NCBI RefSeq assembly: GCF_963921235.1
Contig: NC_086107.1
Location: 111,230,001-111,294,000, forward strand
Source of the DNA: Mobula hypostoma
Taxonomy: Eukaryota
DNA: 64,000 nucleotides
Reading direction: 5' to 3'
Shown piece by piece: positions 2,120 to 54,560 of the stretch. Numbering within the stretch: the first letter of the stretch is position 1; the number at the start of each line of letters is the position of its first letter. The translations under genes were made by a program, and so were the position numbers. A model generated the notes under the pieces. It was given only the letters and a program-made list of their open reading frames with translations. It had not been told where the DNA came from and did no database searches.

Positions 2120-2300
2120 GCACAAGACCATAGTCTGCAGACGCTGAAAATCCAGGCAACACACACAAGATGCTGGAGGAACTCAGCAGGCCAGGCAGCA
2201 TCTGCGGAAAAGAGTAAATAGTTGATGTTTCGGGCTGAGACCCTTCTCCAGGACTCCGGGTCTCGGCCTGAAACATCGACTGTTTACTCTTTTCCATGGA
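2120..2300. mobile_element. Penelope-like repeat end folded back on itself (inverted arms ~2206-2243 / 2258-2295), decayed hammerhead motif
   Basis: GGAAAAGAGTAAATAGTTGATGTTTCGGGCTGAGACCC versus GGGTCTCGGCCTGAAACATCGACTGTTTACTCTTTTCC. Confidence 0.7.
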
Positions 2301-2369
2301 TAAGACCATGATCGCCAATGTCATATGACATGGCACATAATGATAATGATGATGATGATTAGAACACAG

Positions 2370-2885
2370 AATAAATAGTACTGTACAGCTCATAATGTTG
2401 TGCTGACCTTTTAACCCACTCCATGATCAATCTACCCTTCCCACATAGCCCTCCATTTTTCTTTCATTCATGTGCCCATCTACAAGTCTCATAAACATCG
2501 CTAACGTATCTGCCTCACTCCCACCCCTAGCAGCACATTACATGCACGCTGGGTAGAACACCCAACTGTACTTTCCTTGAATCACTTTAAAATTATGTCC
2601 TTTCCTATTAGTCATTTCTCACCCCGAAAAAAAATGCTGACTGTCTATTCTCCTTCCTTCAGCGTTTTGTGCACATTGCTCAAGATATCGAGCATCTGCG
2701 GAATCTCTTGAGTATGTAATTTGCCACACATACGTCATACCATCGTGTACACCCTAATCAAGTCACTGCTTATCCTCCTTCGCCCCAAAGAGAAAAGCCC
2801 CAGCTCACTCAGCCTCTCCTCATAAGGCATGCTCTCTAATCCAGGCAGCATCCTGGTAGATCTCCTCTGCACCCTTTCTAAAACT
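2370..2885 (-). mobile_element. Degenerate CR1 LINE 3' fragment(s)
   Basis: Reverse complement resembles the CR1 C-terminus ([17 protein letters not shown]) and 3' UTR. Confidence 0.65.
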
Positions 2886-3349
2886 TGGGGCGCTTCGTCG
2901 GACTGGGCAGAATCAATATGGATTTATGACAGGAAAATCGTCTTGGAACAATCAGTGGGACAGAAGGTTTTTGGGTTGTAGCTAACAGAATCAGTGAGGG
3001 TAATGGATGTATATAGACTTACACCTTTGAGAAGGTGGCATACGGAAGTGTTATTAAGTAAAATTAAAGAGTTTGTTCTTGGGTGATTTACCAGCCTGGA
3101 CCGAGGATCGCTTAACGGACAGGATGCAGGAATAAAGAGGTCATTTTGGGATAGGGAGATTGTAACCATGCATGGATGGGTGCAGGAATCTCAGCTGCTC
3201 ATGGCTCTCATAAATGACTTGAATGAGGGGGCAGCCAGGTGAAATATGTCTGAGTTTACTGATAATATGAAGCTGGGTGGCAGTATGGTTTGTGAAGACA
3301 ATACAGAGAGGCTTCAGAGGCAGATACGATATAGTACTGTGCAAAAGCC

Positions 3350-3351
<2 letters not shown>

Positions 3352-3392
<41 letters not shown>

Positions 3393-3875: not shown

Positions 3876-3985
3876 TACATTAGGGACTTTTAAGACACAA
3901 AATACTCTGCAGATGCTGGGGTCAAAGCAACACTCACAACATGCTGGAGGAACTCAGCGGGTTGGGCAGCATCCGTGGAAACGAT

Positions 3986-4023
3986 CAGTCAACGTTTCGG
4001 GCTGAAACCCTTCATCAGGACTG
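3986..4023 (-). ncRNA. Minimal type-I hammerhead ribozyme motif (Penelope-associated)
   Basis: Minus strand: CAGTC CTGATGA A GGGT TTCA GCCC GAAA CG TT GACTG. Confidence 0.7.
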
Positions 4024-4271
4024 TAGAGGGAGGGGGCAGAGGCCCTATAAAGAAGGTGGGGTTGGGTGGGAAGGAGAAGGCTGGTAGGTTCCAGGTGAAA
4101 AACCAGTAAGGGTTAAAGGGGTGGGGGAGGGGAAGCAGGGAGGGGATAGGCAGGAAAGATGAAGAAGGAATAGGGGAAAACACAATGGGTAGTAGAAGGA
4201 GGCTACCTACCAGCCTTCTCCTTCCCACCCTCCCCCCACCGTCTTTATAGGGCCTCTGCCCCCTCCCTCTT

Positions 4272-4309
4272 CAGTCCTGACGAAGGGTTCCGGCCCGAAA
4301 CGTTGACTG
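4272..4309 (+). ncRNA. Minimal type-I hammerhead ribozyme motif (Penelope-associated)
   Basis: CAGTC CTGACGA A GGGT TCCG GCCC GAAA CG TT GACTG: stem I CAGTC/GACTG, core CUGANGA and GAAA, palindromic ACGU stem III. Confidence 0.72.
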
Positions 4310-4739
4310 ATCGTTTCCACGGATGCTGCCCGACCTGCTGAGTTCCTCCAGCGTGTTGTGTGGAACTTTTAAGAGGTGTTTAGATAGGCATATGAATATG
4401 AGGGAAATGGACGGATTTAGACATTGTGTATACAAAGGGATTCACTTAGTTGGCAATTTTATTACTAATTTAATTGGTTTGGCAAAATATTGTGGGCCGT
4501 AGGGCCTGTTCCTGTGCTGTACCATTGACTAACTTTTTCATTTACATAGAGATACAACACAGGATAAGCCTTTCTGGTCCTTCAAACCACGCCGCCCAGT
4601 AACCCCCGATAACCCTGATTTAATCCTAACCTAATCACGGGACAATTTATAATGACCAATTAACCTACTCACTGGTATGTTTCGGACTGCAGGAGGAAAC
4701 CGGGGGGACCCGGTTGAAATCGAGCTCTCACACATCATT

Positions 4740-5130: not shown

Positions 5131-5151
5131 AAAATATGTCTGCGTGCCTTC

Positions 5152-5860: not shown

Positions 5861-7502
5861 CCCTTTCCAACTTTTTCTCTTAGTATCAGAATCAGGTTTA
5901 ATATCACCGGCGTACATTGTGAAATTTGTTGCTTTGAGGCAGCAGCACAATGCAATAAAAACGCCGTAAATTAGAATGCACAATCTATATAAAAATTAAA
6001 TAATATTGCAAAAATGAGAGCAAAAAAAAAGAAAAAAATGTGAGATAGTGTAGATGAACTTATTGTCCATTCAGAAACCTGATGACGGAGGGGAAGAAGC
6101 TGTTCCTGAATCACTGAGTGTGTGTCTTCAGGCTCCTGTACCTCCTCCATGATGGTAGCAATGAGAAAAGGGCATGGTCTGCCATCTTTTTGAGACATCA
6201 CCTTTTGAAGGCGTAACACTGAAGCAGGTTCGCGGGTTTGGTGAATGAGGGAGTAAACGCTGACTGTGAATTAGCATATTAGTCATTTAATGACAAACAG
6301 TAAAAAATACGACCAAACATTCCTGCAAGTTACACAAACTACAGAACTAAATATTCAACAAATATGCGCGCGGGGCATGCCTTCCCAATGGTTCCGGGGA
6401 TGAAAGGAGAGGTAGAATCTCTCACGTGCTATTCTTTATACTCCCGGGGCGTTTGAAACTGGACACTAGATGCTGTGACATGCAAGCCAGCCAATAGGAG
6501 GAGCAGCAGCAGTTTTTAAACTGACTAATCATGACAGAAGAGGGTTTTGAACAGCAAATATGCCACGCCCCCCCCACCCCTGCACAGGACAGGAGGTATC
6601 CAGGGTGTTGAGGTGGTTAGGGCCCATGATCAGGCTGGCCGAGCTTACGACTGCCTGCGGCCTTTTTCTGATCCCGTGCAGTGGCCCCTCCAAACCAGGT
6701 TGGGATGCAATCAGTTAAAATACTCTGCACGGTACATCTGTCGAAATTCGCGGAGGCACATTTCTGACATTTCAATAGAGATTGCACTTATAAAATACCT
6801 TATTGGCTGTAAATCGTTTCACGGGAGGGGTCAGAGGTTACGAAAGCCGTAGAAGAACCACTTTTGGGGTTTCCTCCCTGTACCTGGTCTGTTTCGGAGA
6901 CAATCATCCAATAGAATTCCAAACGGAAGAGTATTATTCTGTCTGCAATCGTTCTGAATGGGAGTACTTAATGCTTCCCTCGAGAGCGGCATATAAAATG
7001 CCATGTTTTGGCAGCTCCAACGTGCAACAACAAAAGAGACAGCGGAGGATTGAAGACTCATCCAGGGGTTTATAAGAATATAAGAATACAATACTTTGAT
7101 ATTGTTCTTTTGCTCTAGTTATTGTAACTTTGAGTATTTTTTATGTCTTGTGGAGGGCAATGTAATTGGTGGAAAGGTACAGAATTCACAGCTGCCAACG
7201 TCGAGTTGGTGTTCACTTTAAGAGGCTTGTCTGACGTGAGGAGGTAGTTACATAAAGGACTTCCTGTACAGTTTTTTTGTGTTCAATAGAAGAGTTGCTA
7301 CATTTTTTCTTAAATGTAAAACACCTCTGCCATTTCATTTGCGAAAACCTACACCACAAAACAGCAGGTTTCGCAATACACAAGGAACCCAGCACGTCAG
7401 GCAGCATCTATGGAGAGGAATAAAGAGTCAACACTTCAGGCCAAGACCCTTCATGCTGACTCAGTAATTTAGCTACATACTTCACAACATACAGTGATAT
7501 GA

Positions 7503-12334: not shown

Positions 12335-13414
12335 AGAGTGCAGTGCCGAGGTGGTGGTAGAGACAGGTACATTCAGGACATTTATGGGGCTCTTAGATAG
12401 GCACAGAAACGAAAGAAAAATGGAGGGCTATGTGGGAGGGAAGGATTAAATCGATCTTAGGGTAGGTGAAAAGGTCGACACAACGTTGTGGGCCAAAAGG
12501 CCTGCTCTGTGCTGTAAAGTTCTACACTCTCATTGTCTGGCAGAGGGGCTAAATTTCCTGCTGCTGCTTCTATTTCTTTTATTTTTCTAATCACACTTAA
12601 TTTGTCCAGTACTGAAACTAACTTAACTGGCCCCTACTTACTCCTCCCTGTTCAAACAACAGCACAACTGCAGTACTTTGGCACCACTCCTGATACGAGG
12701 CTGGGTGGAAAAATAATGGTCAGAGCCTTTGCAATTTCCTCCTTGGGGAGCTGGAGTGGAGGGAGTACCTCAGGAAAATCACAGGGGAACTGACACGGAG
12801 TAAATTGCAGCCTCTGCCTCGGGTTCTGGCAGACCTCATTGTAGGCCTTAAACGAAACGGGTAGAGAGATGGCTTTTGCATTGATTTGAATTTCTTAAAG
12901 ATCCCCAAGTTTGGAAAAGCTTCGATTCAGTTGCAAAATAGCAAAAGCAATGCCTTTATTCAGGAAGGGAGGGGAATATGAAGCAGGAAACTACAGATCA
13001 GTTTATTATCGTCTGTTGTTGGGAAAATGTTAGAAGCTATTATTAAGTGCACTGTATAATAGCAAGGTATAATTGTAAAATTCGAAGTACTCTGGCGCAG
13101 TCATGGCCTTGGTCTGTGGTGCTGAACTGAAACCTCTGCTGAGTTGCAGCTCAGACTTTGTCATTTTAAAATAGTTTTTTTGATTCGTAAGGATGGTTTT
13201 GGGGACAAAGAGGTGAGTTAGCTTACGGGTCAGGTTAGGGTTTAGGGACAGGGATGTGGGTGTTCAGCCAGTGTGCAAAAGACAACAAACTGTGCAATTA
13301 CAAAAAGAAAGAAATTATAATAATATATAAGCAGTTAAATATTGAGAACATGAGACGAGGAGCCTTGGAAGTGAGTCCAATAATGGGGCAGGTGAAGTTG
13401 AGCACATCTGCTCC

Positions 13415-13850
13415 ACCTGTTAAAAGCAGAACACCCCAATGGCCAAACATTTTAATTCCAATTCCCATTCCCATTATAATATTTCAGTCCATGGCCTCCT
13501 CTCGTGTGAATATAAGGTGGAGAAGCAGCGCATATTCCGTCTGGGTAGCCTCCAACCTGATGGCAAAGATATCGATTTCTCCTTCTGGTACTTTTCTATC
13601 CTCACCTTCCCTTCCTCTTCTATTCCCCACTCTGGCCTCTTTCCTCTTCTCACCTGCCTATCCCCTCCTCCTGGATTCCCTCCCCCTTCCCTTTCTCCTA
13701 TGGTCCACTCTCCTCCTCGAACAGATTCCTTCCTCTCTAGCCCTTTACCTTTCCTACCTAGCCAGCTTCACCAACCACCTTCCAGCTAGTCCTCCTCCCC
13801 CTCCCCCTACATTTTAATTCTGGCATCTTCTCCCTCCCTTTTCAATCCTC
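13415..13850 (+). mobile_element. Penelope-like element fragment (end of GIY-YIG domain plus pyrimidine-rich 3' region)
   Basis: AKHFNSNSHSHYNISVHGLL...IFRLGSLQPDGKDIDFS. Confidence 0.8.
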
Positions 13851-14149
13851 AGGCTGATTAAATTAAGATAATAGAAAGATAAAGCTTTATTTGTCACATT
13901 TACATCAAAACATACGATGAAATGCATTGTTTGCATCTACAACCAACACAGCCTGAAGGGGTGCTGGAGCAGCCTGCAAGTGCCATCATGCCCACAACTT
14001 ACTAACACTAACCTGGACATCCTTTTGGAATGTGGGAGGAAACTGGAGCACCCCGGAGACACCCACTTGGTCACGAGGAGAAAGTACAAACTCCTTGCGC
14101 ACGGCGGTCGGAATTGAATCCCGATCAATGATTACTGGAGCTCCATTTC

Positions 14150-14752
14150 GCTGAACACCTACGCTCTGTCCGCCAGAGAAAGCAGGATCTCCCAGTGGCC
14201 ACACATTTTAATTCCATGTCCCATTCCCATTCTGATATGTCTATCCACGGCCTCCTCTACTGTCAAGATGAAGCCGCACTCAAGTTGGAGGAACAACACC
14301 TTATATTCCGTCTGGGTAGCCTCCAACCTGATGGCATGAACATTGACTTCTCTAACTTCCGCTAATGCCCCACCTCCCCCTTGTACCCCATCTGTTATTT
14401 ATTTATTATATATTTTCTCTCTCTCCTTTTTCTCCCTCTGTCCCTCTCACTACACTCCTTGCCCATCCTCTGGGCTTCCCCCGTCCCCCTTTCTTTCTCC
14501 CTAGGCCTCCCGTCCTATGATCCTCTCATACCCCTTTTGCCAGTCAACTTTCCGGCTCGAAGCTCCATCCCTCCCCCTCCTGTCTTTTCCTATCATTTCG
14601 GATCTCTCCCTCCCCCTTCCACTTCCAAATCTCTTTCTATCTCTTCCTTCTGTTGGTCCTGACGAAGGGTCTCGGCCCGAAACGTCGACTGTACCTCTTC
14701 CTATAGATGCTGCCTGTCCTGCTGCGTTCACCAGCAATTTTTGTGTGTGTTA
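14150..14752 (+). mobile_element. Penelope-like element 3' part
   Basis: EHLRSVRQ...PVATHFNSMSHSHSDMSIHGLLYCQDEAALKLEEQHLIFRLGSLQPDGMNIDFSNFR*, followed by a hammerhead motif. Confidence 0.85.
14654..14691 (+). ncRNA. Minimal type-I hammerhead ribozyme motif with canonical GUC triplet
   Basis: TGGTC CTGACGA A GGGT CTCG GCCC GAAA CG TC GACTG. Predicted cleavage 3' of C14686. Confidence 0.75.
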
Positions 14753-15617
14753 CTACACTATGTTACCTGTAATTCTCTGGGAGAGATGAAAATGTGTATT
14801 CTGTTCAATAACTTCAGCATACAGGGGGAAACCCGGATCACTGGGGTTTAATTGTTCAGGCATGGAAATCAGGAAGTTTTCCTTCAAACAAAGGGGAGTG
14901 GGGATCTGGATAGCTTTCCTACAAAGCCTGTGGATGTTGGAGACAGGCCTTCTTCTACCTTCCTATCCGGTCCTGTTGAAGGACAAGGGCCTGAAACGTC
15001 GACGGTTTATTCCTCTCCATGGATGCTGCCTGGCCTGCTGAGTTCCACCAGCATTTTGTGTGTGTTGAAGTGAAGGTGAGTGAAGTTATTCCCTTGGGTT
15101 CAGGAGCCAGTTTCATAGCTTTAAAGAAATGTTTGAATTTCTTTAAAGCCGAAAAAAGCAGTTCTTTGTTGAACTGCTCCTGAACCTGGTGGTGCAAGTC
15201 CTGAGGCTCTTGTACCTTCTTCCTGATGGCAACAGCAAGAAGAGAGGACACTCTGGGTGGTGGGGATCTCGGGTGATGGATGCTGCTTTCCTGAGATAGC
15301 ACTCTGTGTGTATTTGCTCAAGGGTATTTATTTATTAATTACACAATTTGTCTTCTTTTGCACATATGTTGACTGTCAGTCTTTATGTTTAGCTTTTTTC
15401 ATAAATTTTATTGTATTTCTTTATTTTCCTGTAAATGCCTGCAAGAAACTGAATCTCAGGGTTGTATGTGGTGACATATAAATACTTTGATAATAAATTT
15501 ACTTTGACTTTGAGCTATGGGGCTGAAGGGTGACCATGAGTCAACAGGAGTACTGAGTGAGGTTACGTTTGGATCAGACACTGCCTCATAAAATTACAAA
15601 ATGTGCATTTCCATGTA

Positions 15618-16712
15618 CACTCACTGACCACTTTGTTAGATACAAAAGTGGGACCCACTGTGGCCTTCTGTTGCTATAACCCATCGACATGTTGTGCATT
15701 CAGCGATGCTCTTCTGCACACCACTGTTGTAATGTGTGGTTATTTGAGTTACTGTCACCTTCCTGTCAGCTTGAACCAGTCTGGCCATTCTCCTCTGACC
15801 TCCCTCATTAACAAGGCATTTTCGCCCACAGAACTGCTGCTCACTGGATGGTTTTTGTTTTTTGCACCATTCTCTGTAAACCTTAGAGATGGTTGTGCAT
15901 GAAAATCCCAGATTAGCAGTTTCTAAAACACTCGAACCACCCTGTCTGGCACCGACAAAGTCACATTTCTTCCCCAGTCTGATGTTTGGTCCAAACAACA
16001 ACTGAACCTCGTGACCATGTCAGCGTGCTTTTATGCATTGAGTTGCTGGTTGTATGGCATTGCCACCTTGTCGTGGTGAAGAGGCTTGTGAGTTTCTGAG
16101 ATCCCGAGAGCGATGTTGTCTGGAGTTTAGCTCCTGGTAGGGTCACGCATAGTGGGAAGGTCAAGGCGAGGTCCAGACAAAGAGGAATCCGACCAAGATC
16201 CCAATGGTGGAGTGGGGATGATAATGGCACATCGCAGTGGCAGTGCAGGTGGAGGAAGGCTGCAGCAGTGAAGTTGCCTCACATTCTGTGCCACCAGACC
16301 CTGAACCCTGAATCTCTCAAGGGCCATGTGGTAAATCACAAACACAAAAAAAATCTACAGATGCTGCAAATCCAAAGCAGCACCCACAAAACGCTGGAGG
16401 AACTCAGCAGGCCAGGCAGCATCTGTGGAAAAAAGTAAACAGTCAACATTTCGGGCTGAGGCCCTTCATCAGGATTTGAATTGGTGGGGGGAATGCCTGA
16501 ATTAAACAGTGGGGTGGAAGGGAAGGAACTGTGTGGACTCATTTCGATCACATTTCGCCCCCATCCTGATGTTTGCTGAACAGCAATTGAACCTCTTGAC
16601 CATGCTTGCGTGCTTTTGTGCATTGAGTTGCTGCCTAACAATTAGCTGATTAGATCATTTGCATTAACAGGCAGTTCTTTACAGGTGGACTTAATAAAGT
16701 GGCCACTGTGTG
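15618..16712 (-). mobile_element. Tc1-like DNA transposon remnant(s) with nested RTE-like and Penelope-like fragments
   Basis: TIRs TA|CACTCACTGACCACTTTGTTAG and CTTAATAAAGTGGCCACTGTGTG|TA. ORF 15636-16001 resembles the Tc1 transposase N-terminal HTH (VGARQGGSSVLETANLGFSCTTISKVYREW...RRMARLVQADRKVTVTQIT). An internal ~90-bp duplication suggests two merged copies. Confidence 0.8.
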
Positions 16713-18484: not shown

Positions 18485-18620
18485 CGACCAACACACACGC
18501 AATGCTGGAGGAACTCAGCAGGGCAGACAGCATCTATGCAAATAAATAAACAGTCGATGTTTCAGCCCGAGGCCTTTCATCAGGACTGGAAAGGAAGGGA
18601 GAAGATGCCAGAATAAAGAC

Positions 18621-18669
<49 letters not shown>

Positions 18670-29867: not shown

Positions 29868-29905
29868 CAGTCAACGTTTCGGGCCGAGTCCCTTCATCAG
29901 GACTG
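29868..29905 (-). ncRNA. Minimal hammerhead ribozyme motif in a Penelope-like repeat (~29765-30135)
   Basis: Minus strand: CAGTC CTGATGA A GGG ACTCGG CCC GAAA CG TT GACTG. Confidence 0.68.
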
Positions 29906-35320: not shown

Positions 35321-36326
35321 TGGACAGCTGAATTATTGTAAAGTAACACTGTAGCAGGTTTGTTCTGGGACATGAATTCTGAATTCTAGACGTGAGAAGA
35401 AGCTGGAAGGGCAGAACGACCCTTTTCAAGGAATCAAGCGGACAGGTACGGTTTTAGGGTAGCAGTTGGCGCTTTGCTTTCCAGCACCAGCCAACGATCA
35501 CCAATCAGGGCTCGATCCCTCCGCTGCCTGTAAGGAGATTGTTCATTCTCCGCGTGACTACGTGGGTTTCCTCCGGGTGCTCTGGTCTCTTCCCAAGTCC
35601 AAAGACGTTTGGTTAGGGCTAGTGAGTTGTGGGTACACTATGTTGCTGCTGGAAGTGTGGTGACACTTGCTCCCCCCCCCCAACACAATCACAATTGATT
35701 TGACACAAACGACGCATTTCATTATATGCTTTGATCTTTCAATGTACTGTACATGTGACAAATAAAGATAATCTTTAGTCTTTATCTTCAAGGAGCAGGA
35801 GTTTCCGTACAACATGTCTGTAGAATAACAATGAAATTCACTGTTCAACATATTGTAGCTGACTATAAAGCAATATTATTTTCCTCAAACATTCCTTAGA
35901 CTTTCCTGACATTTGGTTGCCTGCTCAAGGCCGTGGACCTGAAACACAACCTCTGTTTCTTTTTCCACAGGTACCGTCCGACCTGCCGAGTTTTTTCCAG
36001 CATTTTCTGTTTTTTTTTAATATTTCAGATTTCCAGCATCTGCAGTTTTGACTTTGATTTTTTTTTTACTAGGTTGTCTCTCCTGCCTGTCTGGCAGACG
36101 GGACATTCTGTCTGCTCTCTGAAGCAGTGGTACTGTGCTAAATGACTGACAGAATAATGCCCAGGACTTGCCCGCTTTTTATTGCTACAATCAGGGAGGA
36201 GGTACAGGAGTCTGAAGGCTCACACTCAACATCTCAGGAACAGCTTCTGCCCCTCTGCCACTTGATCATCTTATTTCTGAATCGACAGTTTTTTCCTTCT
36301 CTTTTTACATTACTTATTTAATATAT

Positions 36327-36576: not shown

Positions 36577-38311
36577 TATTTTATATATATATATAGTCTA
36601 CTTATTGTAATTTTTTATAGGCACCTGTTAGTCTCATGAGACCATGGATTTGCACCTTGGAAGGTTTCCAGGGCGCAGGCCTGGGCAAGGTTGTATGGAA
36701 GACCGGCAGTTGCCCATGCTGCAAGTCTCCCCTCTCTACGACACTGATGTTGTCCAAGGGAAGGGCATTAGGACCCATACAGCTTGGCACCAGTGTCGTC
36801 GCAGAGCAATGTGTGGTTAAGTGCCTTGCTCAAGGACACAACACGCTGCCTCAGCCAAGGCTTCAACCAGCGACCTTCAGGTCACTAGACAACCACCTTA
36901 ATCACTTGACCATGCACCAACACTACTGTAATTTATAGTTTTTATTATTATGTATTCCAATTTTCTGCTGTCAAAAAACAATAAATTTCACAACACATGC
37001 CAGTGATATTAAACCCGACTCTGAGTCCGGTTCACTTACAGAGGGAGTGTACAGGCAGACAATTTGGTACCAGGCCATAACAAGGTAGATTGTGAGGTCA
37101 GTAGTCCATCTTCTTGTCCTAGGTAACCATTCAGTTGTCTATAGCAGGGAGATCAGGAGTTGTCTTTGAGCCTGGTGGGACATGCTTTCGGGTTTTTGTA
37201 TCTTCTTGCCGATGGAAGTAGGGGAGAAGAGAGAATGTCCTGGATAAATGTAGTCTTTGATATGCTGATGTGATACATGGATTTCTTCTTCTGGTAATTT
37301 TCCCTCCCCCTTCCCTCTTCTTCTATTCTCCACTCTGACCCCTTACCTCTTCTCCTCACCTGCTATTGCCTTCCTCCTTCTTCTTCGCTTTCTTCCATGG
37401 TCCACTCTCCTCTCTTATCGGATTCCATCTTCTCCAGTCCTTTCCCTTTCCTATCCACCTGGCTTCACCTATCACCTTCTACTAGTCCTTCTTCCTCTCT
37501 CCCCACCTTTTTATTCTGGCATCTTCCCCCTTCCTTTGCCGTTACGGAGAAGGGTCTCGGCCAGAATTATCAGCTGCTCATTCATATCCATGGATGATAC
37601 CTGATCTGCTGAGCTCCTCCAGCATTTTGGATGTGTTGCTCTGGATTTCTGGCATCTGCAGAATCTCTTGTGTCTTTGATATGTTGGCTGTTTTATAACA
37701 CCCTGAGTGAAGATATTCCCCTCATCTTTGTCCTAAATGATCAATCTCTTGTTCCAAGTCTGTGCCTTAATTGAGATATGTACTTTCATCTGAGAGATGA
37801 GGCTGTCTTTTGGTCAAAGTCTGTTTTCCAGCCCAGTCTCTTTGTCCAGTTTTTCAACCACTACCCAGTTCAGCTCTGGTACTGAGCAAAAAGAGAAGAG
37901 ACAAATAGTAAGGTAGTGCTCATAGGTTCAATGTCCATTCAGAAATTGGATGGTGATGGGGAAGGAGCTCTTCCTGGATCTCTGAGCGTGTGTCTTCAGG
38001 CTCCTGTACCTCCACCTTGATGGTCACAATGAGAAGAGGGTGTGTCCTGGTGTCCTGGGTGATGAAGGCTCTCAGTGATGGATGCTACCTTTTTGAGGCG
38101 TCGCCCTTTAAAGATGACCTGGATGCTGGGAAGGCTAGTGACCATGGTGGAACTGGCTGAATTTACAACTTGCTGCAGCTTTTTCCGATCCTGTGCAGCC
38201 ACAGTGTCTTGGAAACTAAAGGTCAGAAACTGGCCTTTCAGCCCAAACAGTCCACACCAAAGCAGTTAAACTGCCTAGTCCCGCCAAGCTGCACCGGGAC
38301 CATAGCCCTTC

Positions 38312-39317: not shown

Positions 39318-39518
39318 AAACTTCTCCTGAACGTTCAAATCGAGATGGCACCCACCATACCGAACGGGGGATACAACCAGGTAGAATGCATCTGTAGAGA
39401 TTTGCGAGTGATCTCCACGGTACATCTAACTGGTGTAACACTTCATTATGCATTCTGCTACACACATCAAAGTAGCTGGTGAACGCAGCAGGCCAGGCAG
39501 CATCTGTAGGAAGAGGTG

Positions 39519-39556
39519 CAGTCGACGTTTCAGGCCGAGACCCTTCGTCAGGACTA
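39519..39556 (-). ncRNA. Minimal hammerhead ribozyme motif
   Basis: Minus strand: TAGTC CTGACGA A GGGT CTCG GCCT GAAA CG TC GACTG. Confidence 0.62.
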
Positions 39557-39779
39557 CATGCATCCTGCTGTTGTTTTTCTTAGTAAACCACAATGCACTG
39601 ATGTGATGGAATGATCTATATGCAAATCACAGTTTTCACAGCGCATCAATGCATGTGACAATAATTTAAAAAAATTAAATTTACCAATTTAAAGTTTTGG
39701 AATTTTCTGTGGATGTACAGTCACTGGTTATAAATAAACCTGATTCTAACAGATTTTTGCACATCAAGAATCAAGTGAT

Positions 39780-40570: not shown

Positions 40571-41135
40571 CTATTTGTGAGAGAGAATCTGGAGAGACCG
40601 TGGCAAATTCTGTGTAGAAAAATCCTCTACTTTCTGCCATTGGACACCACAATCAGATCCAGGTGTAAGATTGTGTTTCCTAGACACCTCGTCTGATAAG
40701 AATCCTGGAATCTGTCGGGCTGTCAATGAGAGATAAGGAATTCAAACAGTGCATGCAAAGCTGGAAAGGCACAGTAGAAATGAACAAAGAGCTTTGATTT
40801 TGAGTTTTTTTTTGTGTGTGGAGTACAGTGTTCATGTACTTTATCTCAAATCAGGTATCCCAAAGTACAGTGGATTCGATAAATTGGGTCACATCAGGAC
40901 CAATACATTTTGGCCCACTTAAATGGCTACCCCAATTAAAGTTTCATGGAAATAGTTTTTTAAAAGGTATAAAAAAGACAAACTACTGTTTAGCTCTGTA
41001 ACAAATTATGTACATATATTTCAATTAAATACAGTACAATAAAACTGTGCAACATACATCAAAGTTGCTGGTGAACGCAGCAGGCCAAGCAGCATCTATA
41101 GGAAGAGGTGCAGTCGACGTTTCAGGCCGAGACCC

Positions 41136-44028: not shown

Positions 44029-47000
44029 ATAGTTATCAGTAGAGGAATTGATCCAGTGAACGTTGACACCGCTGTGTTTTGATTATAAATGAACAAGATC
44101 AGCACAGATGACTAGTGCAGATAATTGACTGTCTTCATACAGTTCTTTCAATGACTGCATTCTCCAAGTTTTCATTTTCATTGTGACATTCAAAGTACCT
44201 TCAAATTCTTTGTAATTCTTAGCTTGTTGAAAGAGTGAAATGGTTTCCTTTTCACTCCCGGCTGTTCCTGGCATCTCCAAGCCTGAATGCTTGAAACCGC
44301 AGTGAGCCAAACAGTTCCAGTTGTCTTACTGCTCTTTTCTTGCCAACCATCAGTGACAAAAATTGCTGCTTTTTGAACACAAAGACACACAACTGATGCT
44401 ATTTAAAAACTGTTTGCTCTAAGCATGTTGTAGTGTCTAATGCATGGCTCTGATGCCAGTTGGAAATTGTTTGGTAACAGTCTCCTGTCACAGTTAAGTA
44501 GTATAGCGTCCCAAATAAAGGGAATCCTGGCTATTTTCGTGAATAGCTTTTGTTTTCAAGAATTGTCCCAAATAAGCGGCTGCCCCTGTTAACCAATGGC
44601 CCAATTAACCAGAATCCACTGTAGTTGTAAAACAATCATTTTTTAGCTGGGGCTGAACTAAACTTTTATCCATGGGAAACGTGGCAGCCAGTTCGAGTGA
44701 AAGTGCCACGAGATAGTTTACTCCTGCACAGTGGCACTGTTGTAGGGAACTGAGTTCAATCTTGACCTTGGCTTTGCTGTCTTTGTGGAGTTTTCTTGAT
44801 TTCCCTGTAACCACAGTGCTCCCGTTTCCTTCCACATCCCAAGGATGTACCGGTGGGCACACCTAATCTTGCACTGCTAATTACCCCTACACTTAGGCGG
44901 CATGGTAGCACAACGCTATACAATACAGGCGACTTGGCTTCAATTCCTGTCACTGCCTCCAAGGAGTTTGTACCTTCTCCCCATGTCCACGTGGGTTTCC
45001 TCCGGGTTTCCTCCCGCAGTCGAAAGACATACCAGTTAGTAGGTTAATTGGTCATTGTAAACTGCCCCATGTTTGGGCAAGGATTAAGTCAGGGGATTGC
45101 TGGGTAGTGTGGCTTGAAGGGTCGGAAGGGCCTATTCCGTGTTGCTTCTCAATAAATAAATGAATAAACACAGGAGCTGCTGGAAGTCCGGAGCAACCCA
45201 CAGAAAACGCTGGAGAAACTCAGCAAGTCAGGCAGCATCTATGGAGAGGATAAACAGTTAGTGCTTTGGGCCGAGACCCTTCACCAGGATTATCCCTACT
45301 GTAGAATCGAGGGAAAGTGGATGGGCCTGTGAGGGAAGGTGCAAGGGGGTAAAGGAGGAAGAAAGGAGATGGGGAATGGGATTAATGTGATGGTTCCCTG
45401 TGAGCCAGGAAAGATTTAATGGGATGAACGGCCTCTTAGTGTGTAATTTTAAGTTTCGGGAAAGGAAGATAGGATCTTGTTTTAACGTCTTATCAAAGAG
45501 AGGCACTTTTGACAGTGTAGGCATCCTGTTCTACAGGCACCAACCATCAGCTGCTTTAAATTCCTGGGCCTTGACATGTCCTGGGCCCAGCACGTAGATA
45601 AAATCACAGGAAGGTGTGCCAGTGTATTTACTTTCTCAGAGGTTTAAGGAGGTTCAGTACGTCACCAAGCACACTAACAAAGCTCAACAGATGTTCTGTT
45701 GAAAAGCATCCTGACTGGTTGCATCAAGGTCTGGTATGGCAACTCAAATGCACAGGAACGATGGAAGCCGCAGAGGATCGTGGACTTGTCCCAATGCAAC
45801 ATAGGCACCGTCAGTTGTAATTACAGAAGGGTCAGCCACGTGGGCCAAGTGATTTATCACGAAGAGCTCAGCCACCTGGGCCAAGCCATGTTCTCGCAGC
45901 TGCCATTGGGCAGGAGGAACAGAGGCCTGAAGTCCCACACCACCAGGTTCAGAAACTGAAACTTCCCTTCAATCATTTGGAGATGGAACCAACCAACACA
46001 ACCCTAATCACGGCAGTTTAGCATCAGTGACCACACTGATCACCTTGCATTGAAATAGACTTGGTTTATTTTCGTTCTATTTATGTTTGTTCTTGTAAAA
46101 ATGTGCATTATTTATTGTTAACTTACATTTTGTTTGTGAGTGATGCCGTGCGCCTGTGATGCTGCAGCAAGTACATTTGGCAGGGCATAAACGATGAGCA
46201 CAACTTTGACTTTTCTTTCCGCTCGAGTGGCTCCAGAAGGATGAGCTCACAAAGCTCTGAGACATGGTTCAAGGAGACGCTCGAACAGTGTGCCACTGGC
46301 TTCCTCGTTGGGTTGGTCAAGGAGTCGCTCGAACCGTGTACCGCTGGATTCCGCGTTGGGTTGTGAGGGGATGGTGCTGGTCTCCCTTGTCTGTGCTGAC
46401 CATCAGTGTCCAGAGTGTGCTGCCTGGGTTGACAGAGGGGGCAAATCCAATAAAGGCATTTAAGAGGGTGTTAGGCTGGGAGACAAATGTGTGGAGGATG
46501 GAGGAATATGGACATTGTGTGGAGATTAGTTCCTCCAAAAGGACCGCAATCATCTCATGGTTTAGAGGCTTGTGTGTCTCAACGACCCAGGGAGCCACGT
46601 TGGCTGGAGTCAGGGATTTATGCTTTGGCTCTTGGTAGGGTCACCCATGCCAAACAGGTCAAACGGTAGAGGCCAGACAAAGAATAGTCTACCAGTTCGG
46701 AAGTTCAGCTCAGGGCTAACAACCTTGACTAGTCAATCAAAACTGCTACGCAAGCAGCAATGGAGAATCCTTCTATATCTGAGTGTGCCGGTATTCCTGA
46801 GTCTCCACCCTTGACTTGCATGACCCACTGTAGTGAAAACCGAGAAGAAGCTACTGACATGATGAAGGAAGCCCTGAACACCACCAGAGATGGAGGACCC
46901 TCATTGCTGCCCTCAACACCAATGGGCAGTAAGTAGGGATTAGCTAAATTAAGCATTTTCTTTCTAGTTTAATTAGTTCAATACAACATTGTGGGTTATA

Positions 47001-48070: not shown

Positions 48071-50426
48071 GTAGAAATTAGCCCGCTGTAAAATGGGGCT
48101 CAATTCCTGACACTGTCTGTAAGGGAACCAGGAGTCCGTATGTTCTCTCCGTGACTGCGTGGGTTTCCTCCGGGCACTCTGATTTCCCCCCTGAGTTCAA
48201 AGTTCCCAGCAAATTTATTATCAAAGCACACGCAGTATACGTCACCATATGCAACTCTGACGTGCGAAAGACGGCAACATGTGCAAATACAAAAAAAGAC
48301 GAGGAGTTACACGCACAAATGCCTGAAGAGTGCCGCGGTAGCATGGCGGTTAGCGTGACGCTTTTACGCCTTGGGGGTGTCGGAGTTCGGAGTTCAGTCC
48401 CAGCATCCTCTGCAAGGCGTCTCCATGCATCGTCCCAGTGGAATACATGGGTGTTCTCCCTATTGCTTAGGTTTCCTCCCACAGTCCAAAGACGTGTTGG
48501 TTAGTAGGTTAATTGGTCATTGTAAATTGTCCCATGATTAAGTTAGGATTAAATCGGGGTTGTCAGGAGTTGCTAGGCAGTGCGGCTCAGAGGGCTGGAA
48601 GGGCCTATTCCACATTGCATCTCCAAATGAAATAAAAATATTTAAACGTCACCCACCTGACGAGATTGGCAATGATCCACCTTGCCTCCGGCAATGTCAG
48701 CAGGTGCTCTCTGCTGGCTCCGCTCTGCGTGCAGAGTCTGTCGCTTAGTGGTGCAGCCCTTGCCCTGTGTTGGGGCCACATCCACATAGCCCCTCAAAGT
48801 CAGCAGCCCAAGGTGCATCGGTCAAAAAAGCATGTGAGGGTAGTGGGGAATGAAAATTTGACAATTTGACCCCTAATCCTGGCAATAAGACCATAAGACA
48901 TAGAAGCAGAATTAGGCCAATTGCTCCACCATTCCATCATGGCTGATTTACTATCCCTCTCGTCCCATTCTCCTGCCTTCTTCCTGTAACATTTGACACC
49001 TTTACTAATCAAGAACCTCTGCTTTAAATATACCCAATGACTTGGTCTCCACGGCCCCCTGTGGCAATGAATTCCTTTGATTCATGAACCTCTGGCTAAA
49101 GAAATTCCCCCTCATCTCTATTCTAAAGGGATGTCCTTCAACTCTAAGGTAGACTCTCTTACTATTGGAAACTTCCTCTCCACGTTCACTCTATCTAGGT
49201 CCTGGTCTCTTATGGAGGGAAAGAATTTATGTGTGATCCCTTCACTGAATCTTTGCTTGGTTATGGCTAAGCAAACATAGGCTTTTGTCTGACTGTGAAG
49301 CATTCTGCAAAGTTCCCATGGGTTTAGGTCCAGTTTCCTGTTGTCCCCTGCTGTCAGAGAACTCCAGAGTGTCTCCTCTCTACAGACTCCTTTACTTTCC
49401 AAACGGCACGTCCTAGCGCCGTCTGTGCACAGTCCTTCTCATCACTGTTTCTATATTAGTCTCTGATATCTGACTACGAGACGGAAGACTCTTATCGGTC
49501 AGGAAAGGTTTCTGATGAAGTATACAGGGTGATCTCTGCTGCCTCAAAAATGTTCAAAGTTCAAAGTAAATTTATAATCAGAGTACATATATGTGACCAT
49601 ATACAATTCTAAGATTCATTTTCTTATGGGCATTCACAGTAAGTACAAGAAATGCAATAGAATCATTGAAAGACTGCACCCAACAGGATAGACAACAACC
49701 AATGTGCAAAAGACAACAAACTGCGCAAATACAAAATGAAAGAAAAACAAACTAAGCAATAAATACCAAGAACTTGAGATGAAGATTCCTTGAAAGTGAG
49801 TCCAAAGGTTGTGGGAACAGTGCAGTGATGGGGCAAGTGAAGTTGAGTGAAGTTATTCCCTCCAGTTTATGAGGGGTAATAACTGTTCCTGAACCTGGTG
49901 GTGTGGGTCCTGAGGCTCCTGTACCTTCTTCCTGATGGGAACAACAAGGAGAGAGCATGGCCTGGACGGTGGGGTCCTTGATGATGGACGCCGCTTTCCT
50001 GCGATAGTGCTCTGCGTAGGTGCGCTCAATGGATGAAAGATGAACCAAGATAGGGCTGAGGTGGAGCGTGGTGGGGTGTTGTACAGGATAGAATGGAATG
50101 GTGCAATACACAAAGACGGTCAGAAGGTCGGACAAGAAAATGAACAGTCAATATTTCAGGTTGAGACCCTTCCTCTGCACTGGAATGCAAGAGAGAAGAT
50201 AGCCTGATAACGTAGTCTTTAGTGTGATGCTATTACGGCGCCATTGACCCAGGTTCCATTCCTGCCACTGTCTGCAAAGAGTTGGAACATTCCTTCTGTG
50301 ACTGCATAGGTTCCTTCCAACATTCCAAAGACGTTTGGGTTAATAGGTTAATTGGTCATCTGGGTGTAATTGGGCAGTGCTGGCTGGAAGAGCCTGTTTC
50401 CGTGCTCTATCTCCAAATAAACAAAC

Positions 50427-50800
50427 AGATAGATAGAGAGAGAGAGAGATGCGTAGATAGAAAGAGGGAGATAGATAGAGAGAAAGATAGTGAGAGAGGA
50501 AGATAGAGAGAGAGATAGATAAAGATAGATAGAGAGATAGATAGATAGATGGATAGATAGAGAGAGACAGAGAGAAATAGGTGGATAGATAGAAATTGAC
50601 AGATAGCTAGATAGACAGATAGATAGAGGGATATAGATAGAGAGATAGATAGAGAGAGATGGCTAGATAGAGAAAGAGAGAGAGATAGAGATTGATATAG
50701 AGAAAGAGAGAAGAGAGATAGAGAGAAAGAGAAAGAGAGCAAGAGAGAGAGAGCAAGAGAGAAAGAGAGTGAAGGGAGAGAGACAGAGAGAGAGAGAGAG
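50427..50800. repeat. (GA)n/(GATA)n compound microsatellite
   Basis: Direct inspection. Confidence 0.95.
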
Positions 50801-52196
50801 CTAGTATAAAAAGGTAATGGGAAGAGATGGTGCAACAGCTAGCAAGTGATTAGGGAATCCAGATAAGAGGGTGATGGGCAGATGAGGGAGGGAGGGAGGG
50901 GAACAGGGATGATGTCAGAAGTTGGGGGTTGGGTGATAGGTGGAATGGACGAAAGGCTGAAGAAGGTGGAAAGCTGGATAGAATGGTAATTGGCAATTGG
51001 TTGATCCCATGTAATGAGGTACACTGAAGAGCTTTTTGTTTCCATACATTAGTAGTTGAAGTAATACAAAAGAGGAAAAAACCCAGAAGGCAGAATGTAT
51101 TATACAGTGTTGCAATTAATGTGCAGTGCAGGCAGACAAATGAATAGCAAGGGCCAAGACAAGGTAGATAGAGACCAAGAGTTCATCTGCATTATAAAAA
51201 AATTCATTCAAGAGTCTTATAACGGTGGGAGAGAAGCTACGCTTGAGTTGCATGGTGCTTGTTCTTAGGTTTTTGTGTCTGCTGCCCAATGGGAGGGGGA
51301 AGCAGAGAGAGTGACCAAGTTGGGAGGGGTCCTTCACTTCCACACTCACGAGATATTGACAACATTTTTATTTACTTAGAGATACAATGTGAAACTGGCC
51401 TTTTGAGCCGCGCTGCCCAGCAACTCGCGACAATCCCGATTTACCCCAATTTAATCACAGGACAATTTACAATGACCAATTAACCTATGTCTTTGGACTG
51501 TGGGAGGAAACCAGAGCACCTGGGGGAAAACCACACATTCTACGGGGAGGACGTACAGAGACTCCTTATAGAGGATGCTGAGATTGAATTCCGAGCTCTA
51601 ACTGGTATACTACCATGCCGACCAAGGGTCGAGACCCTGCCACAAGTACTGAAACATTGATGGCCCCTCCACAGATGCTGCTTAACCTGTTGAGTTCCTC
51701 CAGCAGGTTGTATTTTGCTCTGGATTTCAGCATCCGTAGTCTCTGTCGTCCCAAAGGAGCCTTCACAATAAGAATGGAGACGTTGTGGTTCCGAGGTCAT
51801 ACCCACAGCCCCGTAGTGTCACCGAGCAAGTTAATTACTAGAGAGTGCAGATCCCTCAGAATGCCCTGCAGACTGATGTTGATAGAGGAGGTAAAAACAA
51901 AGATTGTCAGATAAAGTTAAAGATTAGCTTTATTTGTTACATGTATATTGAAACATACAGTGAAATGTGTCGTTTGTGTCAACAGCCAATACACTCCGAG
52001 GACCCTACAAATGTCGCCATGCTTCGGGCCGCAACATAGATTGCCCAAAACTTACTAACCCTGACTCGTACGTCTTAGGAATGTGGGAGGAAACCGGAGC
52101 ACCAGGAGGAAATCCATGTGGTCATGGGGAGAATGTACAAGCTCTTTACAGGTAGCGGGAGGAATTAGGTCCTGATCTTCTGATTGATGGTGCTCT

Positions 52197-52912
52197 AAGC
52201 TTTAAGTTCCTCGGGGTCAATATCACAAATGACCTGACTTGGTCCAACCAAGAAGAGTTCACTGCCAAGAAGGCCCACCAGCGCCTTTACTTCCTGAGAA
52301 AACTAAAGAAATTTGGCTTGTCCCCTAATTTTTATAGATGCACCGTAGAAAGCATTCTTCTAGGGAGCATCACAACCTGGTATGGAAGTTGTCCAGTCCA
52401 AGACCGGAAGAAGCTGCAGAAGATCGTGAACACGGCGCAGCACATCACACAAACCAATCTTCCGTCCGTGGACTCACTTTACACCGCACGCTGTCGGAGC
52501 AGTGCTGCCAGGATAATCAAGGACACGACCCACCCAGCCAACACACTTTTTGTCCCTCTTCCCTCCGGGAGAAGGCTCAGGAGCTTGAAGACTCGTACGG
52601 CCAGATTTGGAATAGGCTTCTTTCCAACTGTGATAAGACTGCTGAACAGATCCTGACCCGGATATGGGCCGTACCCTCCAAATATTCGGACCTGCCTCGG
52701 TTTTTTTTTGCACTACCTTACTTCCCATTTTTCTATTTTCTATTTATGATTCATAACTTAAATTTTTAATATTTACTAATTTTAACTATTTTCAATATTT
52801 AATATTTGTAATCCAGGGAGTGTGAAGCACAGAATCAAATATCGCTGTGATGATTGTACGTTCTAGTACCAATTGTTTGGCAACAATAAAGTATAAAGTA
52901 TAAGTATAAAGT
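52197..52912 (+). mobile_element. Rex/Babar LINE 3' end
   Basis: FKFLGVNITNDLTWSN...KKAHQRLYFLRKLKKFG...NFYRCTVESIL...LPSGRRLRSLKTRT and a (AAGTATA)n tail. Confidence 0.9.
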
Positions 52913-53697
52913 GTTCCACAAGCCACTAGGCTACCGCGACACCCCTACTGAGGTATTTCAGATAAAGCTGCACCTCCACAAATGACACCAAGCTCTGAAG
53001 ACATGGGACCACGCTAACAGAATCCGTGGTCAGGCTTGTGTCTGCAACCCCCTCTGCAGGAAAGCCATTCTGTGTGGAGCCACGGCTCAGAACTGTGTGC
53101 AGTTCTGGTCACCACACTTCACAAAAGATCTGAATGCACCGAAGATGAGATTCACAAGGACGTGGACCAGAGCGTCGTCTCAGTTTGAGACTAGATAGGC
53201 CAGGCTTGTCTTCTTTGAAGTTGGAGGAGACAGAGGGCTGGGCTGATAGAACGCAGCCATCTCCGTCATGGGCACTAGCCTCCCCAGTATCCAGGACACC
53301 TTTGAAAGGAAATGCCTCAAAAAGGCAGCGTCCGTCCTTAAGGACTCCTATCACCCTGGACCTGCCCTCTTCTCATTGCTACCATCAATGAGGATTTACG
53401 GAAGCCCGAAGACACACGTTCTAATTTTCAGGAACAGCTTCTTCCCCTCCACCATCCAATTTCCGAATGGCCAATGAACCCATAAACACTATTTCAGTCT
53501 TTATTTCCTCTCTTCTTGCAGAACTTATTTAAGTTAATTTTCTTTTCTTTATACTTCTCTTGTAATTTATAGTTTTTATTATGTTTTGCAATGTACTGCT
53601 GCCACAAGACACAAATTTCACAACATATGCCAGTGATATTAAACCTGATTCTAATTCTGAGGTGCACAACATTGAGAGAGACGTAGATAATAGTTGG

Positions 53698-54560
53698 AAT
53701 TCACTCCTGTAGCAAAGGTACACTGTACATTGGTGAGACCCGTCGTAAGTTGGGGGACCACTTCGTTAAGCAACTCTGCTTCATCTGCCTAAAGTGGAAC
53801 TTCCCGGTGGCCAAACATTTTAATTCTGATTCCCATTCCCATTCTGACTTGTCGGTCCATGGCCCCCCTCTTGTTGCAAGATAGGCCACCCTCAGGGTGG
53901 AGCAGCAACAGCTTCTGGATAGCCTCCAACCTGCTGGCGTGAACATCACTTTCCCCCAGGTCCCCTCCTCCTCCCCTTTCTCCTGTGGTCCACTCTCCTC
54001 TCCTTTCAAACTCCTTCTTCTCCAGCCCTTGACCTTTCCCACCCACCTGGCCTCCACTATCACCCTCCAGCTAGCCTACCTCCTCCCCTATCCTATCTTT
54101 TTATTCTGCCATCTTCCCCCTTCCTTTTCAACCTGATGAAGGGTCTCGGCCTGAAACATCGACTGTTTATTCATTTCCACAGATGCTGCCTGACCTGTTG
54201 AGTTCCTCCAGCGTTTTGTGTGCGTTGCTTTGGATTTCCAGCATCTACAGACTTTCTCACATTTTTAAAACTAGAAGGCATAGGTTTGAGTGAGGGGTAG
54301 GAGGTTTAGAGGGAAGAGATTTTTTTCATCCAGAGGGTAGTTGGAATCTGTAGCACACCACCTTTCCTTTGCATGGCTTTATCTATCATCTGCCAGCTTG
54401 TCCTCCTTCCCCTCCCACCCCCACCTTCTTATTCTCCTTCCTTTCTTCTTCCCCTTCCTTTCTAATCCTGATGAAAAGGGTCTTGGCCCGAAACGTTGAC
54501 TGTTTATTCCTCTCCACGGATGCTACCTGACCTGCTGAGTTCCTCCTGCACGTTGTGTGT
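53698..54560 (+). mobile_element. Penelope-like element: GIY-YIG endonuclease remnant plus two tandem 3' repeats, each with a hammerhead motif (54129-54165, 54463-54502)
   Basis: LYIGETRRKLGDHFVKQL (from 53723), PVAKHFNSDSHSHSDLSVHG. CTGATGAAGGGTCTCGGCCTGAAACATCGACTG and CTGATGAAAAGGGTCTTGGCCCGAAACGTTGACTG. Confidence 0.8.

What the first reader, a model, noticed from the sequence alone, without database searches (positions are those of the whole stretch)
2206..54502. Dispersed family of minimal, dimer-type hammerhead ribozyme motifs carried by Penelope-like repeats
Seen in the sequence: a 38-nt motif CAGTC-CTGANGA-A-GGGN-N4-GCCC-GAAA-CG-TY-GACTG. The best copies are 3986-4023(-), 4272-4309(+), 14654-14691(+), 29868-29905(-) and 39519-39556(-). 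Weaker copies are 16440-16475(-), 18551-18588(-), 54129-54165(+) and 54463-54502(+). Decayed copies lie near 2220, 7430, 14970, 37540, 41111, 45255, 50146 and 62960. In the best copies the core CUGANGA/GAAA/UH is fixed while N7 and the stem II loop vary. Stem I (CAGUC/GACUG) closes the fold. Stem III is just the palindrome ACGU, which can pair only with a second copy, and there is an extra A after A9. Established knowledge: Penelope-like elements carry minimal type-I hammerheads in their pLTRs that are thought to cleave as dimers (Cervera and de la Pena), and an extra A at this position is known in the CChMVd viroid hammerhead. Inference: at roughly one motif per 4 kb here, this genome may hold a very large hammerhead family able to cut host pre-mRNAs or lncRNAs.
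Basis: partly seen in the sequence, partly recalled or inferred. Interest (0 to 1): 0.72.

Follow-up and report, generated by a model that had tools for sequence, protein, structure and literature searches.

The report
Ray Penelope remnants carrying minimal hammerheads
The scattered motif is real but ordinary: it is the small hammerhead RNA motif already known from Penelope-type jumping genes, left behind in broken end-pieces, probably in a ray genome; most copies are damaged and the lone ones are predicted not to cut host RNAs.

Summary
The motif is real. It is the published minimal type I hammerhead (min-HHR) of Penelope-like elements (PLEs): extra base after A9, palindromic ACGU, no loop III. 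Three copies follow GIY-YIG endonuclease remnants, one 88% identical to stingray and manta PLE proteins with a Neptune-type linker. PLE hallmarks are present: fold-back pairs, a one-sided ~40-nt tail, and 12-13-bp target duplications.

Only 5 of 20 copies keep core and fold. The core is no better conserved than downstream DNA among copies (9.6% vs 12.6% mismatches, p=0.30), and catalytic G12 decays like neighbouring CpGs. The motif is conserved between subfamilies whose upstream DNA is unalignable, which points to selection in the parent elements. No close same-strand pair has two intact copies, and all five intact monomers are predicted to fold with the core paired off. The high density likely arises because insertions end 60-110 nt downstream of the motif, so even short stubs carry it. 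Cutting of host RNA is unsupported and was not tested. The scan has noted this family many times before, in this and other genomes.

The parts
3986..4023 (-). Intact min-HHR (GUU site), left arm of a fold-back PLE insertion; long 3' end with tail
4272..4309 (+). Intact min-HHR (GUU site), right arm of the same fold-back; short 3' end
3883..4374 (.). Whole head-to-head PLE insertion; arms 3935-4089 and 4205-4360 are 93% alike; 13-bp target duplication 3883-3895 / 4362-4374 (1 mismatch)
14147..14362 (+). C-terminal 72 aa of a PLE GIY-YIG endonuclease, 79-89% identical to Hypanus/Mobula proteins P0001-P0004
14654..14691 (+). Intact min-HHR (GUC site, predicted cut after 14686) at the end of the pyrimidine-rich 3' UTR of the 14147 copy, which ends near 14754
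14968..15005 (+). Damaged min-HHR (A6U, broken stem II); separate insertion of another subfamily, 314 nt from 14654
29868..29905 (-). Intact-core min-HHR (GUU; 3-bp stem II) in a 5'-truncated PLE end with the long tail (to about 29765)
39519..39556 (-). Intact-core min-HHR (GUC; G10.1-U11.1) at the front of a 98-nt stub 39460-39557 bounded by a 12-bp duplication (39558-39569 / 39448-39459, 1 mismatch)
16440..16477 (-). min-HHR with intact core, broken stem I and non-palindromic stem III
18551..18588 (-). min-HHR with intact core, ACAU stem III and A10.1-U11.1; downstream of an endonuclease remnant at 18909-18968
54129..54165 (+). min-HHR with broken stem I and ACAU stem III; downstream of an endonuclease remnant at 53708-53953
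54463..54502 (+). min-HHR with 2 extra A after A9 and a weakened stem I; separate copy about 335 nt from 54129 (76% alike)
2132..2301 (.). Small fold-back: decayed HHR 2219-2256(-) (A6G) joined head to head to a partial HHR 2258-2283(+); 8-bp repeat AAGACCAT at both ends
7383..7454 (-). 5'-truncated, decayed HHR remnant
35920..36045 (+).
37539..37576 (+). Decayed HHR (4 core mismatches) in a PLE end starting near 37280
41048..41135 (-). Remnant starting in stem II; lacks the CUGANGA strand
45255..45292 (-). Decayed HHR (4 core mismatches, including G12A)
50145..50182 (-). Decayed HHR (U4A), 3'-truncated
51615..51745 (+).
62876..63040 (.). Old fold-back: decayed HHR near 62945-62982(+) with an inverted downstream arm 62901-62950(-)
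13385..13852 (+). PLE end with an endonuclease remnant (13385-13582) that breaks off inside the HHR

Best explanation
These motifs are the known minimal hammerhead carried in the 3' end repeat of a Penelope-like retrotransposon (likely Neptune clade, likely in a ray), left in 5'-truncated insertions that are decaying, and they likely cut RNA only in the parent element's transcript, not as lone genomic copies. Mechanism: (1) Shown: order endonuclease remnant, pyrimidine-rich UTR, hammerhead, conserved downstream block, 3' end. (2) Shown: insertions end about 60-70 or 85-110 nt past the cut site. Inferred by analogy with the anole element PAc: these are two internal reverse-transcription start sites, so any copy of about 100 nt or more carries the whole motif, which explains the density. 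(3) Inferred: copies span the cut site, so their templates were uncut or re-ligated RNA. (4) Inferred: the motif is selected in the master lineages, where two hammerheads of one pLTR-ORF-pLTR or tandem transcript pair through ACGU, probably helped by the element's protein, and cut after position 17 at a low rate. (5) Predicted: a lone copy folds as a hairpin in which G5-A6-N7-G8 pairs with C15.2-G16.2-U16.1-H17, an inactive state. (6) Shown: inserted copies accumulate mutations, largely CpG transitions, in core and flank alike.
For: PLE identity: window 14147-14362 has 16 homologs among 32 candidates; the top four are Hypanus/Mobula proteins at 79-89% with RY[IV]D RT motifs, a CX2-5CxxC linker and GIY-YIG (Pfam GIY-YIG E 5e-4 to 2e-3, below the curated cut-off). 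Endonuclease remnants lie upstream of 3 of 20 motif copies. Insertion anatomy: fold-back with a 13-bp duplication and a one-sided tail; a 98-nt stub with a 12-bp duplication, as described for PLEs in PMC8557442 (passages). 3' ends: 8 of 20 at +58 to +70, 9 of 20 at +85 to +110, 3 other. In runs X23 and X1, contigs leave the element at +104/+108 into heterogeneous A/T-rich sequence (agreement 0.36-0.40). Selection in masters: between subfamilies the motif is 0.76-0.92 identical (omitting the decayed 37539 copy, 0.61-0.71), while the 100 nt upstream is mostly at shuffle level. Neutral decay of copies: core mismatches 19 of 198 vs 67 of 531 downstream (p=0.30), or 18 of 182 vs 30 of 389 after dropping shared-variant columns (p=0.42). 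G12>A is 16-17% depth-weighted in X23, against 9-21% for loop CpG changes. The core-paired hairpin is the MFE in 7 of 10 copies folded, including all 5 intact ones. Literature.
Against: No cleavage was measured. No full-length element or RT fragment of this family lies in the window, so the pLTR-ORF-pLTR dimer and the clade rest on relatives. No genome was held, so copy number and subfamily consensus conservation could not be measured genome-wide. The 20-copy test has low power, and copies are not independent. Stem covariation is weak: 3 of 9 pairs have a both-sided change, reached by 26 of 500 shuffles. The downstream block (+20 to +60) is nearly as conserved between subfamilies (0.66-0.83), so the conservation may serve protein binding or priming rather than catalysis. 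In X1 and X4, C11.1>U reaches 51-60% while G12>A is 5-6%: an abundant lineage carries G10.1-U11.1, which fits selection in masters but departs from the canonical pair. The folding energies ignore tertiary contacts, and the laid runs are contigs of unverified kind from possibly other species.
Confidence: 0.85

Rival explanations
1. The motif is hammerhead-derived but is kept in the parent element mainly as an RNA structure or signal (protein-binding site, transcript start or 5' boundary), with little or no cutting even there.
For: In PAc, core mutants did not affect insertion in vitro and no RNA-seq reads ended at the site (PMC11167929). Conservation continues past the motif. No copy starts at the cut site (0 of 20), while 7 of 20 have their homology start at -32 to -19, at or inside the motif's front. 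Fold-back joints in contigs sit mostly at the front edge: 4 of 5, 5 of 6 shown.
Against: All catalytic positions are kept in the majority of copies and across subfamilies, and the same core is kept across metazoan PLEs. PAc's hammerhead does cleave with protein, with C3/G8 rescue. The -31 boundary is partly an artefact of where subfamilies stop aligning (14654 shows it despite having a UTR upstream). Two joints (table 5c) have a side at +1 and +3; their type is not given.
Confidence: 0.25
2. The ~100-140-nt pieces are a non-autonomous retrozyme or SINE-like family that amplifies by itself through its own RNA circles.
For: The 98-nt stub at 39460-39557 starts one base before stem I and has its own target duplication. 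Non-LTR retrozymes derived from pLTRs are reported, including in one chondrichthyan (10.64898/2026.07.22.740005).
Against: No tandem array of the motif exists in the window. Stubs belong to the same subfamilies as endonuclease-bearing copies, and their 5' ends vary from -19 to beyond -500. A unit cut from a circle would begin at +1, which was seen in 0 of 20.
Confidence: 0.07
3. One reading: dispersed copies are an active ribozyme family that cuts host pre-mRNAs and lncRNAs, as neighbouring pairs or in trans.
For: 5 of 20 copies keep core and fold. GUU sites and G10.1-U11.1 pairs occur among published PLE min-HHRs, so these copies cannot be called dead from sequence alone. One hybrid site (14654 core with the 14968 cleavage strand) can be drawn.
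Against: No protection of the core in copies. The close same-strand pairs each include damaged copies. The hybrid 14654/14968 form computes at -8.2 kcal/mol against -12.7 and -11.4 for the two separate folds. The 3986/4272 pair lies on opposite strands and folds as one long hairpin. Strand split is 10:10. No host coding exon was detected among the window ORFs scanned with Pfam. Published activity is low or absent.
Confidence: 0.05

Closest known systems
Minimal type I hammerheads (min-HHR) in pLTRs of metazoan PLEs (Cervera and De la Pena 2014, PMC4209133)
   Same: CUGANGA-H, G10.1-C11.1, GAAA-palindrome-UH with no loop III, U-rich 5' flank, short helix I, mostly solitary copies, some close inverted pairs, thousands per genome. 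The C-G-U-C/U arrangement is common in their alignment.
   Different: Stem II is short (4 bp plus a 4-nt loop, against mostly 5-8 bp). No cartilaginous fish appeared in the alignment part read or in a search of 2 of the 3 supplementary files.
Endonuclease-positive PLEs, Neptune clade (as described in PMC8557442)
   Same: C-terminal GIY-YIG with a CX2-5CxxC linker in close relatives, 5' truncation, inverted truncated copy at the 5' end, 30-40-bp tail on one end, hammerhead near the 3' end.
   Different: Only 3' fragments are in the window; the linker was seen in relatives, not here. Nematis shares the linker. No RT tree was built.
PAc (Poseidon element of Anolis carolinensis; PMC11167929)
   Same: Hammerhead upstream of two 3' ends that define a tail; A/T-rich flanks.
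   Different: Different clade. In PAc the ORF starts inside stem II; that was not established here. PAc's protein-assisted cleavage is measured; here it is only inferred.
Animal non-LTR retrozymes (10.64898/2026.07.22.740005)
   Same: pLTR-related sequence with a type I hammerhead; occurs in Chondrichthyes.
   Different: Retrozymes are defined by tandem units each with a hammerhead; no such tandem is in this window.

Membership tests
PLE min-HHR (type I) | Core C3U4G5A6N7G8A9, G12A13A14A15.1, U16.1, H17 | tested here: met
   All 11 invariant bases in 8 of 20 copies ungapped; majority base at every core position
PLE min-HHR (type I) | Short helix I closing the motif, and helix II starting G10.1-C11.1 | tested here: met
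   88.9% of 117 cells paired vs 14-47% for slid controls; covariation weak. C11.1 is U in 10 of 20 copies
PLE min-HHR (type I) | Unpaired base between 9 and 10.1 | tested here: met
   A in 17 of 18 copies covering the position
PLE min-HHR (type I) | Palindromic 15.2-16.2 with no loop III | tested here: met
   ACGU in all 5 intact copies; broken in many others, G16.2>A in 9 of 20
PLE min-HHR (type I) | Located in the terminal repeat of a PLE | tested here: met
   Downstream of endonuclease remnants in 3 of 20 copies; a paired 5' pLTR is not present in the window
PLE min-HHR (type I) | Self-cleavage as a dimer or with protein | not testable with these tools
   Needs in vitro transcription; only contigs were available
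EN+ Penelope-like element | Single ORF with RT and C-terminal GIY-YIG | tested here: met
   Met in 79-89% identical relatives P0001-P0004; the window holds only the endonuclease end
EN+ Penelope-like element | 5' truncation, inverted truncated copy, one-sided 30-40-bp tail | tested here: met
Neptune clade | CX2-5CxxC motif between RT and EN | tested here: met
   Present in 4 of 4 top relatives; not covered by the window fragments; also found in Nematis
Neptune clade | RT phylogeny | not tested
   No tree built; no reference set on hand
Non-LTR retrozyme | Tandem units each with a complete hammerhead | tested here: not met
   No such tandem among 22 TRF rows or in the self-BLAST
Rfam hammerhead families | Match to a curated covariance model | tested here: not met
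   No hammerhead family at E<=1 in the window

The most novel reading that the evidence does not exclude
Intact copies are latent switches. Each folds 'off' by pairing its catalytic GAYG with CGUY, and is switched on in trans by the element's protein or by pairing through ACGU with an element transcript. Where the element is expressed, host RNAs carrying a sense copy would then be cut at many sites, a transposon-triggered cleavage of the transcriptome.
Probability: 0.06. Interest if true: 0.7.

Novelty: new member of a known kind. Interest (0 to 1): 0.15.

Why it matters
As it stands, little: it extends a 2014 observation to a ray PLE family, and the scan has already logged this family many times. 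Its use is as test material for an open question, what the hammerhead does for Penelope-like elements (stated as unclear in PMC8557442). The copies record where copying starts (two 3' ends), that templates were uncut, and a predicted inactive hairpin that could explain why such ribozymes need protein. If lone copies were shown to cut host RNA in vivo, that would be a new large-scale effect of a transposon on a vertebrate transcriptome, but nothing here indicates it.

Tried and rejected
Whole-genome count: impossible, no genome held; no copy-number extrapolation is claimed. Rfam: one spurious Hsp83 3' UTR match over the fold-back, far below its gathering score, and no hammerhead. Expression: no RNA holder listed on record; the runs laid (4 of 24, 2 of 24) are contigs, which cannot show RNA ends, strand or level, so nothing is concluded on expression or cleavage. 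Host gene context: Pfam scans of 24 window ORFs and 80 more gave only retroelement or transposase-type domains or weak hits below cut-off; a long intron is not excluded. Covariation as evidence: weak for stems I and II and not distinguishable from CpG decay for the 'off' helix (1 of 4 pairs with a both-sided change, reached by 207 of 500 shuffles). Calling GUU or G10.1-U11.1 copies dead: rejected, both occur among published PLE min-HHRs; searches for rate data gave nothing usable. Reading 14654/14968 and 54129/54463 as partial tandems: rejected, they are 76-77% alike and separated by unrelated DNA. Target-duplication search: 1 convincing of 10 copies scanned; 2 more found by eye and checked. 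One extra region (29633-29670) scored was dropped from the count of 20 as mis-registered. One search is ungapped and mis-registers copies with indels or truncations (54463, 51626, 2258, 41111, 7425). A literature search for this family in rays returned no paper on it by listing; bioRxiv supplements of the 2026 preprint (species and family tables) and file 1 of PMC4209133 were not seen and may bear on whether it is already described.


Full report
Observation. All nine listed copies lie at the stated coordinates. A core pattern gave 8 matches against none in 100 shuffles. The motif reads as a type I hammerhead: 5-bp stem I, CUGANGA, an extra A, 4-bp stem II with a 4-nt loop, GAAA, ACGU without loop III, then H17. 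Only 5 of 20 copies keep all invariant core bases, the palindrome and both stems. Rfam has no matching model.

What carries it. The 14654 copy follows a 72-aa frame whose best relatives are Hypanus sabinus and Mobula hypostoma proteins at 79-89% identity. These hold RT motifs, a CX2-5CxxC linker and a GIY-YIG domain, the layout given for Neptune and Nematis PLEs in PMC8557442 (passages). The 2026 preprint found only Neptune and Poseidon in vertebrates, so Neptune is the likely clade; a ray is the likely host (inference). Endonuclease remnants precede 3 of the 20 motifs, and a fourth PLE end (13385-13852) breaks off inside the motif. No RT part of this family is in the window. By my hand-set intervals the family covers about 5.1 kb, 8% of the window.

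Insertion anatomy. The 3986(-) and 4272(+) copies are the arms of one head-to-head insertion with a 13-bp target duplication, a long 3' end on one arm and a short one on the other. The 39519 copy is a 98-nt stub running from -33 to +64 relative to the cut site, inside a 12-bp duplication. Across copies, 3' ends fall at +58 to +70 (8 of 20) or +85 to +110 (9 of 20), and contigs of runs X23 and X1 leave the element at +104/+108 into mixed A/T-rich sequence. This matches the one-sided 30-40-bp tail of PLEs, which in the anole element PAc corresponds to two internal reverse-transcription starts (PMC11167929, parts 1-2 of 4 read). Because the motif lies within about 100-140 nt of the 3' end, nearly every truncated copy includes it. 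That is the likely reason for the density. No copy starts at the cut site (0 of 20). Seven of 20 start at -32 to -19, and fold-back joints in contigs cluster at the front edge (4 of 5; 5 of 6 shown). Part of this boundary is an alignment effect, and two joints have a side at +1 and +3 of unstated type. The idea that an RNA starts at the front edge comes from earlier scan notes and is only partly tested here.

Is the core selected? Among the 20 copies, core positions mismatch at 19 of 198 against 67 of 531 in the downstream block (p=0.30); two copies were left out of the downstream count, and 5'-truncated positions were excluded by eye. Four of the 9 columns that vary among the five best copies are CpG transitions. 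In contigs laid on the 14654 copy, 9 of the 12 listed differences inside the motif are CpG transitions (32 further rows of the table were not shown). G12, the general base (PMC6155905, passage), changes to A at 17% in X23, as often as loop CpG positions. These are depth-weighted figures from contigs of unverified kind and species. Between subfamilies, by contrast, the motif is 76-92% identical (omitting decayed 37539) while the upstream 100 nt is mostly at shuffle level, and in X1 and X4 the wobble-preserving C11.1>U reaches 51-60% while G12>A at the same CpG stays at 5-6%. The picture is selection in master lineages and neutral decay after insertion. Against over-reading: the downstream block is almost as conserved, and covariation is weak.

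Can the copies cut? The two close same-strand pairs (14654/14968 and 54129/54463) are separate insertions with damaged members. One hybrid site can be drawn for the first pair, but it computes less stable than the separate folds. In 7 of 10 copies folded, including all 5 intact ones, the predicted monomer pairs G5-A6-N7-G8 with C15.2-G16.2-U16.1-H17, hiding the core, and the double-hammerhead form is less stable than alternative dimers (secondary-structure energies only). The alignment cannot separate this helix from CpG decay. Published results agree with low activity. A single S. mansoni min-HHR did not cleave and dimers cleaved weakly (PMC4209133, parts 1-2 of 4). PAc's hammerhead cleaved only with protein, was not needed for insertion in vitro, and left no RNA-seq ends. 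One of nine Xenopus dimers cleaved, strongly (10.64898/2026.07.22.740005, parts 1-3 of 5). GUU sites and G-U closing pairs occur among published PLE motifs (supplement part 2 of 3), so the five intact copies are not dead by sequence; they lack partners. No host coding exon was detected; a CpG island with a minus-strand splice donor near 1064 suggests the window lies upstream of a gene (inference).

Comparison and verdict. I found no paper describing this ray family in three searches (listings), and no shark or ray name in 2 of 3 supplementary files of the 2014 paper; the 2026 preprint reports retrozymes in one chondrichthyan, and its tables were not seen. The scan's index lists 93 findings with these words in at least 24 genomes and 1838 notes fitting 'hammerhead penelope' in this genome; these are unchecked notes, not support. 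Verdict: a real, new member of a known kind; interest 0.15. The host-RNA-cutting inference is unlikely (about 5%) but untested.

Noticed in passing
window 180-1250: CpG island with a minus-strand exon ending in a CAG|GTAAGA donor near 1064 and no obvious ATG; likely the first exon of a gene running left out of the window.
   Followed up: partly
window 14692-14707 and equivalents in most copies: A pyrimidine run ending in YAG then ATG follows the motif, like a splice acceptor; some copies have GG instead of AG. Penelope is known to retain an intron near its hammerhead.
   Followed up: no
window 13385-13852(+): A PLE end with an endonuclease remnant that stops within the hammerhead, just after C3-U4, 300 nt upstream of the 14147 copy.
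   Followed up: partly
runs X1 and X4 laid on window 14678: C11.1>U at 51-60% depth against 5-6% G12>A, indicating an abundant lineage with a G10.1-U11.1 pair.
   Followed up: partly
window 38311-39318: A 26-bp minisatellite, about 38 copies, 95% matches.
   Followed up: no
window 57242-58240(+), 39786-40268(+), 8880-9365(-), 23296-23886(-): LINE reverse-transcriptase 3' fragments, CR1-like by recalled resemblance; Pfam RVT_1 on the first two.
   Followed up: no
window 41879-42832(+), 32987-33553(-), 47112-47699(+), 52156-52656(+): Fragments of a second LINE family matching Pfam ALKBH8_N (and RVT_1 in the first).
   Followed up: no
window 15636-16019(-) and 16548-16710: Remnants resembling a Tc1-type DNA transposon (weak HTH_Tnp_Tc3_2 match).
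   Followed up: no
window 25647-26060(+): Unique, coding-looking stretch after a long CT tract, with no Pfam match; possibly a decayed retroelement or a small exon.
   Followed up: no
P0003, P0008: Ray gene models named as a kinase-domain protein and a neuromedin-U receptor include this PLE's coding sequence, probably annotation read-ins.
   Followed up: no
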